64,000 nt of DNA from a virus (Duplodnaviria; Heunggongvirae; Uroviricota; Caudoviricetes), in the IMG/VR virus record IMGVR_UViG_2778261631_000002. One strand, 5' to 3'. This document shows, in pieces, positions 27,870-28,988 of the stretch. Made by a program: the position numbers and the translations under genes. Under the pieces are notes generated by a model that made no database searches, was not told the DNA's origin, and worked only from the letters and a program-made list of their open reading frames with translations. Position 1 is the stretch's first letter. Every line of letters begins with the position of its first letter.

Positions 27870-28430
27870 TTAGTGCATGATGTTAGCCATCTCATAGGCG
27901 TCAGCCAGTAACTCCATCTCTGACTTGTTCAGCAGGGTGAATTCTTTCTTGCCTCCAACCACACCATCGGCATGAACAGGGACCAGCCAGGGGTATTTTG
28001 CTCTTACTTCAGCCGGTGCTGCATGCTGGTGGTGCCATCTACAAAGTGGCAATTGCTTTTTATGACAACCCGGCGCGGTACGACCGGCGATATGGTGCAG
28101 AGACACCTCATTAGATATTACTCCATGCATATAGCAGGCAATGCAGGGGAGAGCGCCAAGAGTATTGGCGATGCGCCGTTCCTCCGCCGTTGGTGTTCTC
28201 CCCTTCAAGCCACGAGATTTTATTTTTACCGCGCTTTTCCGCGTTTTGCTGGCTGGTGGGCGCTCTTTCTGTTTAGCGATACGGCGGTCGATAGTATCTC
28301 GCATTTTCTGATATTGAGATTCTCGCCAGACCGGATCAGCCAACTTCTCCCGTTGCCGAGCGATCGCTCGTTCTCTGGCTGCCTTCTGCCACTTGCGGCA
28401 CTGTTCAATTTTTTGTTCGATTGTTTTCAT
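27870..28430 (-). CDS. ref: Ref, recombination enhancement function (HNH endonuclease)
   Basis: 186-aa protein with a basic N-terminus and HNH-like Cys/His cluster (CIACYMHG … HHIAG … CRWHHQH). Confidence 0.92.
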   Translation of the reverse strand: MKTIEQKIEQCRKWQKAARERAIARQREKLADPVWRESQYQKMRDTIDRRIAKQKERPPASKTRKSAVKIKSRGLKGRTPTAEERRIANTLGALPCIACYMHGVISNEVSLHHIAGRTAPGCHKKQLPLCRWHHQHAAPAEVRAKYPWLVPVHADGVVGGKKEFTLLNKSEMELLADAYEMANIMH

Positions 28431-28435
28431 ATGGT

Positions 28436-28465
28436 CAAAAAAAAGGCGGCCTAATGGCCGCCTAT
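28436..28465 (-). terminator. terminator-like hairpin plus T8 in the ref leader, immediately before the ref start
   Basis: Minus strand: AGGCGGCC-ATTA-GGCCGCCT followed by TTTTTTTT, then GACCAT-ATG. Confidence 0.5.
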
Positions 28466-28501
28466 GATGTCAAGGAGTTAAGTAATGGCACGTCTTCGTA
28501 G

Positions 28502-28545
28502 TTGACAAAAACTGCGGCTCAATTATAACAATCATTTAGAGCAAT
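28502..28545. promoter_or_regulatory. back-to-back promoters with a degenerate C1-operator-like site upstream of ref
   Basis: Plus strand TTGACA-16-TATAAC; minus strand TTGCTC-17-TATAAT; overlapping TTTAGAGCAAT operator core (about 4 mismatches over 17 bp). Confidence 0.4.
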
Positions 28546-28648
28546 GGTAGCTATTTTATTTATCGCGAATCACATTTTTTCTCTTCAGTACCTGTGTGCT
28601 ATACTCCTTCTTGATTGATTGGATGCGGAATACAAACCCGCTCTTTTG

Positions 28649-28680
28649 TGCAGCCTGGCTCCTTGCCAGGCTTTTTTTAT
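28649..28680 (+). terminator. plus-strand rho-independent terminator
   Basis: GCCTGGC-TCCTT-GCCAGGC followed by TTTTTTT; no annotated plus-strand gene upstream, so it would end a roughly 150-nt transcript from the 28502 promoter. Confidence 0.5.
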
Positions 28681-28988
28681 TTCATCATGGAAGCTGTTAA
28701 TGCTTTGGACCTTGCTGAACTGATTGAGAGGGCTTTGTCAACGTGCCCCAAAAATTCGCCAAACTCAGACATCACTTTGGCAAAACCGCGCCGTGCTTCT
28801 TCCTCGGTGGCATTCATCACGAAATGTTCAGCACTACGCATACTTTTGACAGGGAACGCAACGGATATTGAGTCAATATCAGGCATTCTATCGCTCAACT
28901 TTACAGTGACAATGACGGCTGGCGACTGAATATTAGTGCTTACAGACAGCACTACATATTTTCCGTCGATGTTGAAATCCTTTCTCAT
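28677..28988 (-). CDS. hypothetical protein between cre and ref (cra/hxr region)
   Basis: 103-aa ORF on the cre/ref strand with a C1-operator-like site just upstream; preferred over the overlapping plus-strand ORF 28615..28929. Confidence 0.5.
   Translation of the reverse strand: MRKDFNIDGKYVVLSVSTNIQSPAVIVTVKLSDRMPDIDSISVAFPVKSMRSAEHFVMNATEEEARRGFAKVMSEFGEFLGHVDKALSISSARSKALTASMMK

What the first reader, a model, noticed from the sequence alone, without database searches (positions are those of the whole stretch)
28430..28690. Unusual ref regulatory architecture: leader terminator, face-to-face promoters and a terminated plus-strand transcript
A hairpin plus T8 terminator sits immediately upstream of the ref ATG on the coding strand, with no SD, implying attenuation-type control. 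About 90 bp further upstream are overlapping divergent promoters (minus TTGCTC-17-TATAAT, plus TTGACA-16-TATAAC) over a degenerate C1 operator core. The plus-strand promoter has no gene to serve but is followed at 28649-28680 by a strong terminator, predicting a roughly 150-nt non-coding RNA antisense to the hxr-ref intergenic transcript.
Basis: inference. Interest (0 to 1): 0.45.

Follow-up and report, generated by a model that had tools for sequence, protein, structure and literature searches.

The report
P1 c8–ref control region, candidate sRNA
This is the already-described control region in front of the phage P1 ref gene (repressor-controlled promoter plus leader terminator), but beside it lies an unannotated, very strongly conserved opposite-strand promoter-and-terminator unit that looks like a ~68-nt small regulatory RNA gene.

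Summary
The window is a P1-type phage-plasmid (96.6% identical to P1 here; 100% to an E. coli NCCP15648 plasmid). The interval is the c8–ref intergenic region; the upstream gene is c8, not hxr.

Both terminators are real. They are two of only five perfect strong terminators in 64 kb, against none in 30 shuffles.

The ref-side elements are already known:
- the leader terminator (Windle et al. 1988, "attenuator-antiterminator control");
- the C1 operator Oref/Op2a;
- promoters P2ref and P1ref;
- an H-NS site.

P2ref is an extended −10 promoter, TGTTATAAT.

The new point is the block 28593–28688. It is ≥95% identical in 690 of 697 plasmids, while both flanks diverge to 60–90%. It runs from an invariant extended −10 (TGCTATACT) to the plus-strand terminator. 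This predicts a ~68-nt RNA with sRNA-like architecture, antisense to the c8 3′UTR.

Its 5′ end is complementary to sites at the translation starts of cra, a 28-aa ORF and pmgS. That is suggestive only. There are no expression data.

The parts
27870..28430 (-). ref CDS (186 aa, RecA-dependent HNH nuclease Ref)
   Evidence: ORF; 96.6% identical to P1 and annotated as ref there.
28437..28463 (-). Intrinsic terminator in the ref leader: hairpin 28463..28444 plus T8 at 28444..28437. It is the known 'attenuator'. It is also the first canonical terminator downstream of cre-c8.
   Evidence: (z = -4.4). The stem is essentially invariant while the loop varies (ATTA, ATCA, GAAA, TAAA, GCAA) and the T run is 6-10 long. 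It is retained in relatives that lack ref.
28464..28491 (-). P1ref, the predicted sigma-70 promoter of the P1 annotation. Here it reads GTGCCA-16-CATCAT (TTGCCA in P1). The predicted start, about 28457, lies inside the 5' arm of the terminator hairpin.
   Evidence: Transferred from the P1 GenBank features after correcting for indels; hexamer variants. Predicted only.
28492..28506 (.). Invariant 15-nt island, GTCAACTACGAAGAC on the minus strand, inside an otherwise variable leader.
   Evidence: Unchanged in 20 of 22 unique leader variants; the other two carry one substitution each. Function unknown.
28522..28530 (-). P2ref extended -10, TGTTATAAT. The -35 annotated in P1 is CTACCA at 28550..28545.
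   Evidence: P1 annotation. One of only two TGNTATAMT matches in 64 kb. TATAAT is kept in 51 of 55 unique relatives.
28529..28545 (-). C1 repressor operator Oref (former Op1/Op2a), ATTGCTCTAAATGATTG
   Evidence: Positional orthologue of P1's annotated Oref. 13 of 17 matches to the window-derived operator consensus. Most relatives read ATTGCTCTAATTGATTG.
28524..28529 (+).
   Evidence: Present in this sequence. Relatives read TATAGC (34 of 55), TATAAC (12) or TATATC (5), never with T at the last position. Not reported by the scan.
28559..28565 (-). H-NS nucleation motif CGATAAA
   Evidence: Motif read. H-NS binding to the ref 5' region through this motif was shown for P1 in PMC4713147.
28597..28605 (+). 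Candidate extended -10 promoter, TGCTATACT, for the plus-strand RNA. There is no good -35.
   Evidence: No segregating site among 54 unique ref-containing relatives. The TG is kept in 53 of 55. The discriminator 28606-28612 is variable.
28613..28680 (+). Candidate ~68-nt non-coding RNA. It has a single-stranded 5' end (GAUUGAUU), stem-loop 1 at 28621-28644, a U-rich linker at 28645-28651, and a terminator hairpin at 28652-28672 with a U tail. It is antisense to the c8 3'UTR and stop codon.
   Evidence: Fold -23.2 kcal/mol, z = -3.3. Nucleotide diversity is 0.007, against 0.06-0.16 at third codon positions of cre, c8 and ref. At least 95% identical in 690 of 697 plasmids. No Rfam family. No expression data.
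28652..28678 (+). Plus-strand intrinsic terminator, AGCCTGGC-TCCTT-GCCAGGCT plus a T run
   Evidence: The stem is invariant apart from one C-to-T change that keeps a G-U pair. There are loop changes, and the T run is 5-9 long. On the minus strand no T run follows it.
28677..28988 (-). c8 CDS (103 aa, 'lysogeny establishment protein', putative)
   Evidence: It matches phrog_1968, of unknown function. No homologue below 83% identity was found.
44342..44354 (-). Possible trans target 1: AUCCAAUCAAUCA, 1 nt upstream of the Shine-Dalgarno AGGAG of an unannotated 28-aa hydrophobic ORF (44327..44241) in the Op88/pmgT leader
   Evidence: 13-nt exact complement of 28612-28624. The site is predicted single-stranded. 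It reads TATCCAATCAATCA in 79 of 91 related loci.
30310..30320 (-). Possible trans target 2: CCAAUCAAUCA directly 5' of the Shine-Dalgarno GAGG of cra
   Evidence: Unchanged in 62 of 63 related loci.
46238..46247 (-). Possible trans target 3: CCAAUCAAUC at +21 to +30 of pmgS

Best explanation
The interval is the c8-ref intergenic control region of a P1-type phage-plasmid. It holds two separate units.

UNIT 1 (minus strand, already known): control of ref
- ref is transcribed from P2ref, an extended -10 promoter overlapped by the C1 operator Oref. It is silenced in the lysogen by C1 (with Bof) and by H-NS.
- All transcripts coming from P2ref, or reading through from cre-c8, meet a strong intrinsic terminator that ends 6 nt before the ref AUG.
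- This terminator insulates the toxic ref gene from upstream transcription and attenuates P2ref.
- ref is then made only by read-through, by an as yet unidentified antitermination function, or from the weak promoter P1ref, whose predicted start lies inside the hairpin and so escapes it.

UNIT 2 (plus strand, not annotated): a candidate small RNA
- An invariant extended -10 (TGCTATACT, 28597-28605) would start transcription at about 28612/28613.
- A canonical terminator (28652-28678) would end it, giving a ~68-nt RNA: free 5' end, stem-loop, U-rich linker, terminator with U tail.
- It is fully complementary to the 3'UTR of c8 and cre-c8 read-through transcripts. It would act on them in cis, in the manner of lambda OOP on cII. 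It may also act in trans through its 5' seed.

SHOWN HERE: the sequence elements, their homology to annotated P1 features, the rarity of such terminators, and the conservation pattern.
INFERRED: that the plus-strand promoter fires, that the RNA accumulates, and every regulatory effect.

My sub-probabilities:
- Unit 1 as described: about 0.85.
- Some plus-strand RNA ends at this terminator: about 0.7.
- It is a discrete ~68-nt RNA from the extended -10: about 0.4-0.45.
For: IDENTITY
- 96.6% identical to P1 over 27800-29100.
- The P1 record annotates P1ref, P2ref and Oref at the orthologous positions.

KNOWN BIOLOGY
- The Windle 1988 title.
[quoted passage not shown] TERMINATORS
- five strong ones in 64 kb, none in 30 shuffles.
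- In the leader only the terminator hairpin is conserved: invariant stem, free loop.

THE BLOCK
- Nucleotide diversity over 28593-28679 is 0.008. Third codon positions of ref, cre and c8 show 0.06, 0.07 and 0.16. The adjacent 28546-28592 shows 0.08.
- In PLSDB, 690 of 697 plasmids are at least 95% identical over 28593-28688.
- Only 36 of 693 reach 95% over the left flank, and 278 of 697 over a c8-internal segment.
- All 18 phage records are at least 99% identical over the block.

PROMOTER-LIKE PATTERN
- The extended -10 is invariant, the next 7 nt (the discriminator) are variable, and the sequence is invariant again from the predicted +1.
- TGNTATAMT occurs only twice in 64 kb. The other copy is P2ref.

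OTHER
- The fold has z = -3.3 and sRNA-like architecture.
- Mobile-element insertions in relatives cut at 28586-28592 and leave the unit attached to c8.
Against: - No transcript data of any kind. The literature search found no report of an RNA here.
- The plus-strand promoter has no recognisable -35 (TTCTCT here, TTCACT in most relatives, with a 15-nt spacer). The tool's scan did not call it.
- An extended -10 match is expected 3.4 times per 64 kb by chance.
- The family is too uniform for covariation. The two informative single changes point to opposite strands.
- The conservation could serve the minus strand, for example as a c8 3'UTR processing or stability element.
- The terminator could exist only to stop convergent transcription. 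In relatives lacking ref, an ant (KilAC) gene reads towards it.
- Low diversity also continues a little into the c8 3' end (28680-28720), which the plus-strand RNA model does not explain.
- P1ref and antitermination are predictions taken from the literature. I did not test them.
Confidence: 0.55

Rival explanations
1. A C1-repressible plus-strand promoter (TTGACA-16-TATAAC, start about 28536), divergent from P2ref and sharing Oref, makes a ~145-nt RNA ending at the same terminator. It would be either non-coding or a short mRNA for the 24-aa hydrophobic ORF at 28544-28618.
For: - Both hexamers and the 16-nt spacer are present, a 10 of 12 match.
- The -35 reads TTGACA in 43 of 55 and TTGACT in 11 of 55 unique relatives, and it lies in an invariant island.
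- The spacer length is constant.
- A longer RNA would also carry CUCC (28604-28607), which could pair with the Shine-Dalgarno sequences next to the candidate target motifs.
- The 24-aa ORF is intact in roughly 60% of unique variants.
Against: - The -10 never has T at its last position. The majority form is TATAGC, 4 of 6. It is the mirror image of the selected minus-strand TATAAT.
- The first ~55 nt of this RNA are the most variable part of the region, with indels.
- The 144-nt fold is not better than shuffles, z = -1.5.
- The ORF loses its ATG in 15 of 55 unique variants and is frameshifted in about 8 more. Most of its variation changes the protein.
Confidence: 0.15
2. There is no dedicated RNA gene. 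The plus-strand terminator is an insulator. It stops transcription that enters from the variable ref side before it can run antisense into c8-cre-lox. That transcription would come from the convergent c4-icd-ant operon in ref-less relatives, or from antisense promoters or inserted mobile elements elsewhere. The conservation of the neighbouring 40 nt reflects a function in the c8 mRNA 3'UTR (a stabilising hairpin or processing site) or a recombination junction between mosaic modules.
For: - In at least 11 of 55 unique relatives, a 240-370-aa antirepressor (KilAC) gene on the plus strand ends 2-3 nt from the ref-leader hairpin. That hairpin has no T run on that strand, so 28652-28678 is the first canonical terminator for that operon.
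- The block is flanked on both sides by highly mosaic sequence.
- Mobile elements insert just to its left.
- Low diversity extends into the last c8 codons.
Against: - An insulator needs only the hairpin and the T run. It does not explain why 28613-28651 and the extended -10 are invariant while the 7 nt between them vary.
- In P1-type genomes such as this window, the next genes (ref, mat, and here a large ORF) are all on the minus strand, so no obvious plus-strand transcript arrives.
- The Shine-Dalgarno-like AAGGAG on the minus strand is not conserved.
Confidence: 0.25
3. The plus-strand features are fortuitous. The hairpin serves only the c8 message, and the A/T run is a by-product of the c8 stop codon context.
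For: - Three of the A residues belong to or abut the c8 stop codon (AAA TAA AAAAA).
- The run length is polymorphic, 5-9.
Against: - Perfect strong terminators are very rare here: five in 128 kb of strand and none in shuffles.
- The run never falls below 5 T in 55 unique relatives.
- The block is conserved more strongly than the coding sequence next to it.
Confidence: 0.05

Closest known systems
Phage P1 ref control region: P2ref/Oref (Op2a), P1ref and the leader 'attenuator' (Windle, Laufer & Hays 1988; P1 GenBank AF234172 annotation)
   Same: Orthologous sequence, 96.6% identical. Same operator position, same extended -10, and the same hairpin plus T run 6 nt (5 nt in most relatives) before the ref ATG.
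   Different: This copy has one extra operator mismatch (T to A at operator position 11), seen in 1 of 55 unique sequences. Its P1ref -35 reads GTGCCA instead of TTGCCA. Nothing is new in kind.
Lambda OOP RNA (77-nt antisense RNA to the 3' end of the lysogeny-establishment gene cII); from my own knowledge
   Same: A short RNA with its own promoter and an intrinsic terminator, encoded antisense just downstream of a gene implicated in establishing lysogeny. It converges on that gene's transcript.
   Different: OOP overlaps about 55 nt of the cII coding sequence. This candidate overlaps only the c8 stop codon and otherwise the 3'UTR. There is no sequence similarity. Expression, RNase III dependence and any effect on c8 are untested. 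The role of c8 is itself only 'putative'.
Hfq-type trans-acting sRNAs with a seed at the 5' end, including prophage-encoded ones such as DicF and IpeX; from my own knowledge
   Same: 50-100 nt, a free 5' end, an internal stem-loop, a U-rich stretch before a G+C-rich terminator hairpin, and a tail of at least 6 U. There is 10-13 nt of seed complementarity next to ribosome-binding sites.
   Different: No Rfam family matches. The best hit is SorX at 22.6 bits against a threshold of 46.6. Hfq binding and targets are untested. An energy-based scan of translation start regions was no better than with shuffled RNA.
P1/P7 c4 antisense RNA of the immI region; from my own knowledge, mentioned in bioRxiv 10.64898/2025.12.28.696737
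   Same: A small regulatory RNA of the same phage that represses translation of a lytic-pathway gene by base pairing.
   Different: c4 is processed from the 5' part of the operon it controls and lies at a different locus. The candidate here would have its own promoter and be antisense to a different gene.

Membership tests
Intrinsic (Rho-independent) terminator: ref leader, minus strand | G+C-rich stem, loop of 3-8 nt, and a U tract immediately 3' of the stem | tested here: met
   8 bp with 7 G-C, loop of 4, T8. z = -4.4. Stem conserved and loop free to vary.
Intrinsic (Rho-independent) terminator: ref leader, minus strand | Terminates transcription in vivo or in vitro | not testable with these tools
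   Only indirect evidence: the 1988 deletion analysis (title only) and the late, low induction of ref.
Intrinsic terminator: plus strand, 28652-28678 | G+C-rich stem, loop of 3-8 nt, and a U tract immediately 3' of the stem, on that strand only | tested here: met
   8 bp with 6 G-C, loop of 5, T7. The minus strand has GCACAAAAG after the stem.
Transcription attenuator with alternative RNA structures or a leader peptide | A conserved antiterminator pairing that competes with the terminator, or a conserved leader ORF | tested here: not met
   RNAalifold on 15 leader variants keeps only the terminator, and none of the 12 predicted pairs covaries. The short leader reading frames are not conserved (T-run and start-codon polymorphism).
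P1 C1 repressor operator | 17-bp asymmetric site matching ATTGCTCTAATAAATTT and overlapping a promoter | tested here: met
   ATTGCTCTAAATGATTG, 13 of 17 against the consensus of the 12 sites in this window. Orthologous to the annotated Oref. It overlaps the spacer of P2ref.
   Position 6 is C in all 55 unique relatives, and the scan did not report it. A weak promoter cannot be excluded.
Extended -10 sigma-70 promoter: plus strand, 28597-28605 | TGn immediately 5' of a -10 hexamer that has A at position 2 and T at position 6; a -35 is dispensable | tested here: met
   TGCTATACT. Kept in 53 of 55 unique relatives. Promoter activity itself is not testable here.
Bacterial or phage small regulatory RNA | A discrete, stable transcript with defined 5' and 3' ends | not testable with these tools
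   No RNA data are available. No paper reports it.
Bacterial or phage small regulatory RNA | Non-coding | tested here: met
   Every plus-strand ORF that overlaps 28613-28651 runs through the terminator, and its frame is broken by the T-run length polymorphism.
Bacterial or phage small regulatory RNA | Purifying selection on sequence or structure beyond that on neighbouring DNA | tested here: met
   Structure covariation is inconclusive, because there is too little variation.
Bacterial or phage small regulatory RNA | Base-pairing targets | tested here: inconclusive
   The complement of the seed 9-mer occurs five times against 0.54 expected. Two of four non-self sites lie in objectively defined translation start regions (null P about 0.002 per 9-mer), plus a third at an unannotated 28-aa ORF. 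However, seed variants at position 10 are not compensated in the same genomes, and the energy scan was not significant.

The most novel reading that the evidence does not exclude
P1-family phages encode a previously unnoticed, constitutively promoted ~68-nt trans-acting sRNA, antisense to the c8 3'UTR. Its extreme 5' end (GAUUGAUUGG, starting at +1) would pair next to the ribosome-binding sites of three targets:
- cra, the first gene of the cra-cre unit;
- a 28-aa hydrophobic ORF at the head of the C1-controlled Op88/pmgT lytic operon;
- the first codons of pmgS.

This would add an RNA layer that damps leaky lytic or toxic-peptide expression, and Cre-region expression, in the lysogen. A second copy of the same 13-nt motif, followed directly by a plus-strand terminator (44342-44385), would be a cis-antisense paralogue over the 28-aa ORF, resembling a type I toxin-antitoxin pair.
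Probability: 0.15. Interest if true: 0.65.

Novelty: new member of a known kind. Interest (0 to 1): 0.4.

Why it matters
The ref-side architecture is textbook P1 and adds nothing new.

The plus-strand unit would matter for four reasons:
- P1 is a classic model phage and the source of Cre-lox, and the only regulatory RNA I know of in it is c4.
- About 700 sequenced P1-type phage-plasmids of Enterobacteriaceae, many carrying resistance genes, keep this 90-nt block almost unchanged while the genes around it are mosaic.
- It sits next to c8, a gene whose role in establishing lysogeny has never been worked out.
- It gives a concrete experimental handle on that decision: one Northern blot and one promoter mutation.

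The leader terminator also remains the best entry point to the unresolved question of whether P1 encodes an antiterminator.

Tried and rejected
- Rfam scan of 26000-31000 at E ≤ 1: only sub-threshold hits (SorX, STnc50, MicX, suhB), which reflect generic hairpin-plus-U-tail shape.
- Distant C8 homologues, to test whether the architecture persists at greater divergence: none below 83% identity among 5.8 billion proteins. Only 3 loci in the genome collection. C8 matches only phrog_1968, of unknown function.
- Covariation in the plus-strand RNA: too little variation. One change (28640 G→A) favours minus-strand pairing and one (28659 C→T) favours plus-strand pairing.
- Antiterminator structure or leader peptide in the ref leader: not conserved.
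- Coding potential on the plus strand: the 34-aa ORFs run through the terminator. The 24-aa ORF at 28544-28618 loses its start codon or frame in about 40% of unique variants. Rejected as genes with moderate confidence.
- A minus-strand gene start behind AAGGAG (28612..28607): no start codon follows, and the motif is not conserved.
- Energy-based target scan (RNAduplex against 161 translation start regions): the observed best was no better than 78% of shuffles.
- Compensatory change between seed and target: seed variants G28622→A (L032) and G28622→T (L044) pair with unchanged targets in the same contig or genome (L098, L128). The two target variants found (C→U, A→G) merely keep G·U wobbles.
- Extended homology between the c8-ref block and the Op88 leader: only the 13-nt motif aligns convincingly.
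- Papers: Windle 1988 and Łobocka 2004 are not held. Searches for P1 sRNA or transcriptome work and for the literal sequence found nothing relevant.
- The P1 GenBank record lists no terminator and no RNA feature in either region I inspected.
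Full report
WHAT THE SEQUENCE IS

Window 27800-29100 is 96.6% identical to phage P1 (AF234172) and 92-97% identical to P7, RCS47, SJ46 and other punaviruses. The 361 nt around the finding are 100% identical to a 97-kb plasmid of E. coli NCCP15648.

On the minus strand lie cre (29039-30070), c8 (28677-28988), ref (27870-28430) and a mat-like ORF. The annotation comes from the P1 record.

CHECKING THE OBSERVATION

Both terminators are present.
- Minus strand: AGGCGGCC-ATTA-GGCCGCCT at 28463..28444, then T8, then GACCAT, then the ref ATG.
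- Plus strand: AGCCTGGC-TCCTT-GCCAGGCT at 28652-28672, followed by a T run to 28678.
- With strict criteria (perfect 8-bp stem, at least 6 G-C, at least 6 T) the whole 64-kb window has only five such sites on both strands. Thirty dinucleotide shuffles gave none.

No Shine-Dalgarno sequence precedes the ref ATG.

The plus-strand hexamers TTGACA (28502-07) and TATAAC (28524-29) are 16 nt apart, as stated.

The minus-strand 'TTGCTC-17-TATAAT' is miscounted: the two hexamers are 11 nt apart. TTGCTC is the core of the C1 operator ATTGCTCTAAATGATTG (28545..28529). That operator is the orthologue of P1's Oref (former Op1/Op2a). It matches 13 of 17 positions of the consensus built from the 12 operators in this window.

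The annotated promoter P2ref pairs TATAAT with a weak -35 (CTACCA) at 17 nt. It is an extended -10, TGTTATAAT.

WHAT WAS ALREADY KNOWN

- The P1 record annotates P2ref, Oref and a second predicted promoter, P1ref. After correcting for indels, P1ref reads GTGCCA-16-CATCAT at 28491..28464 here. Its start would fall inside the 5' arm of the terminator hairpin and so bypass it. That is my inference from predicted features.
[quoted passage not shown] I have the title only, from the reference lists. The paper itself is not held.
- PMC4713147 shows three things. ref is a lytic-cycle gene. [quoted passage not shown] H-NS binds the 5' region through CGATAAA, which is at 28565..28559 here.

The ref half of the finding is therefore correct and not new.

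WHAT I COULD ADD ON THE REF LEADER

- Across 22 unique leader variants only the terminator hairpin is conserved. The stem is invariant, the loops are ATTA, ATCA, GAAA, TAAA or GCAA, and the T run is 6-10 long.
- RNAalifold finds no conserved or covarying alternative pairing.
- Short reading frames in the leader are not conserved.
- This argues against a structure-switch or leader-peptide attenuator. It leaves three routes to ref expression: factor-dependent antitermination, plain read-through, or promoter bypass.
- A 15-nt island (GTCAACTACGAAGAC, 28506..28492) is nearly invariant in an otherwise variable leader: 20 of 22 unique leader variants, with one substitution each in the other two. Its role is unknown.
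- In at least 11 of 55 unique relatives ref is absent, and an antirepressor (KilAC) gene converges on the hairpin, ending 2-3 nt from the T run. The hairpin, P2ref and Oref persist there. The terminator therefore belongs as much to the cre-c8 side as to ref.

THE PLUS STRAND

- Its -10 reads TATAGC in 34, TATAAC in 12 and TATATC in 5 of 55 unique sequences. It never has a T at the last position.
- The overlapping minus-strand TATAAT is kept in 51 of 55.
- The first ~55 nt of the proposed RNA (28546-28592) are the most variable part of the region: nucleotide diversity 0.08, 53% segregating sites, and indels.

The stretch 28593-28688, by contrast, is the most conserved part of the whole cre-c8-ref region.
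- Nucleotide diversity is 0.008, against 0.06-0.16 at third codon positions of ref, cre and c8.
- In PLSDB, 690 of 697 plasmids are at least 95% identical over it, and none falls below 90%.
- The 96 nt to its left reach 95% in only 36 of 693 plasmids.
- A 96-nt c8-internal segment is below 90% in 388 of 697.
- All 18 phage records are at least 99% identical over the block.

The block begins at an extended -10 motif, TGCTATACT (28597-28605). That motif shows no variation in 54 unique sequences, and the TG is kept in 53 of 55. Only two TGNTATAMT matches occur in 64 kb, and the other is P2ref.

The seven nucleotides after the hexamer (28606-28612) vary in the divergent lineages. From 28613 the sequence is invariant again up to the terminator. 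That is the pattern expected of a promoter, a discriminator and a transcript.

The predicted 68-nt RNA folds with z = -3.3. It has a free 5' end, a stem-loop (28621-28644), a U-rich linker (CUCUUUUGUGC) and a terminator with a U tail. It matches no Rfam family.

Mobile-element insertions in relatives break at 28586-28592 and leave the unit attached to c8.

Plus-strand ORFs here either run through the terminator, with a frame that the T-run polymorphism breaks, or are frequently disrupted.

HOW IT WOULD WORK

No minus-strand terminator follows c8 until the ref-leader terminator. The c8 message must therefore carry a ~240-nt 3'UTR that is perfectly complementary to this RNA.

The simplest mechanism is cis-antisense control of c8 and of cre-c8 read-through transcripts. 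It could act by duplex formation and processing, or by convergent-transcription interference. This is analogous to lambda OOP acting on cII. All of this is inference.

A LEAD TOWARDS TRANS ACTION

- The complement of the RNA's first nine nucleotides (CAATCAATC) occurs five times in the window, against about 0.54 expected.
- Besides the locus itself, three of the four other sites lie on the sense strand at translation starts.
- The first is AUCCAAUCAAUCA, 1 nt before the AGGAG of an unannotated 28-aa hydrophobic ORF in the C1-controlled Op88/pmgT leader. It is a 13-nt perfect match to 28612-28624.
- The second is CCAAUCAAUCA, directly before the GAGG of cra.
- The third is CCAAUCAAUC, at +21 of pmgS.
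- For a random 9-mer from this window, the chance of two or more complementary sites in objectively defined translation start regions is about 0.002. After allowing for the roughly 30 9-mers in the RNA, this is suggestive only.
- Complementarity starts exactly at the predicted +1.

Against this lead:
- Seed variants at position 10 are not compensated in the same genomes.
- All these regions are conserved anyway.
- An energy-based scan was not significant.
- The Op88 leader and this locus may simply share a motif. There, the same 13-mer is followed on the plus strand by another of the five strong terminators, at 44355-44385.

RIVALS

- A pure insulator or c8-3'UTR element without a dedicated RNA gene: 0.25. 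It gains support from the convergent ant operon in relatives lacking ref. It does not explain the invariant body and -10 box.
- Chance: 0.05.

VERDICT

- The ref-side interpretation is right but has been known since 1988.
- The plus-strand RNA prediction is plausible at its 3' end and probably wrong at its 5' end.
- The added value is a sharply delimited, family-wide conserved candidate sRNA gene next to c8. It is testable with one Northern blot or by re-mapping existing RNA-seq data.

Noticed in passing
window 44241-44385: An unannotated 28-aa hydrophobic ORF (MNTAFKIIMAAIYFWLFSITFGGIVAHG, 44327..44241, minus strand) has a good Shine-Dalgarno sequence and sits in the C1-controlled Op88/pmgT leader. 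Antisense to its start region, the plus strand carries the same 13-mer (TGATTGATTGGAT) followed directly by a strong intrinsic terminator (44355-44377 plus a T run). The layout resembles a type I toxin-antitoxin pair. P7 and SJ46 annotate a small gene here (upf86.8, 'membrane protein'). No PHROG or NCBIfam match.
   Followed up: partly
L003, L012, L022, L031, L051, L057, L064, L086 (c8-centred loci), about 2026-3170: In a sizeable minority of P1-like elements ref and mat are replaced by a convergent antirepressor (KilAC, icd-ant type) operon. Its stop codon lies 2-3 nt from the 'ref leader' terminator. P2ref and Oref are retained although no ref gene follows them.
   Followed up: partly
window 28586-28592; L006, L043, L077: Several relatives have breakpoints here, at the left edge of the conserved block. 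In L006 an ISApl1 transposase gene lies about 1.1 kb to the left. Tn3-family and IS1 elements truncate the ref side further left in L002 and L004.
   Followed up: partly
window 28492-28506: A 15-nt island (GTCAACTACGAAGAC on the minus strand) is unchanged in 20 of 22 unique leader variants, with one substitution each in the other two, while its surroundings vary. It could be a protein or antiterminator recognition site, or the -35 region of a plus-strand promoter.
   Followed up: no
window 28529-28545: This element's Oref carries a T-to-A change at operator position 11 (ATTGCTCTAAATGATTG). It is seen in only 1 of 55 unique relatives and might weaken C1 control of ref.
   Followed up: no
window 23271-26561 (minus strand): A 1096-aa ORF with repetitive Ser/Gly/Thr/Asn-rich passenger-like sequence and a C-terminal ...GVKYTF ending looks like an autotransporter. 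It lies where P1 has res/mod, so it appears to be accessory cargo of this phage-plasmid. Judged from the translation only.
   Followed up: no
whole window: The Chi-containing 9-mer TGCTGGTGG is the most repeated 9-mer in the window, with 19 copies counted over both strands. The C1 operator core ATTGCTCTA occurs 12 times.
   Followed up: no
window 28640-28648: The complement of the RNA's U-rich linker (CAAAAGAGC) also has four other copies in the window (4966, 31650, 56955, 61087). At least one lies inside a coding region (56955, within the 456-aa ORF), and they are probably purine-rich codon runs.
   Followed up: no
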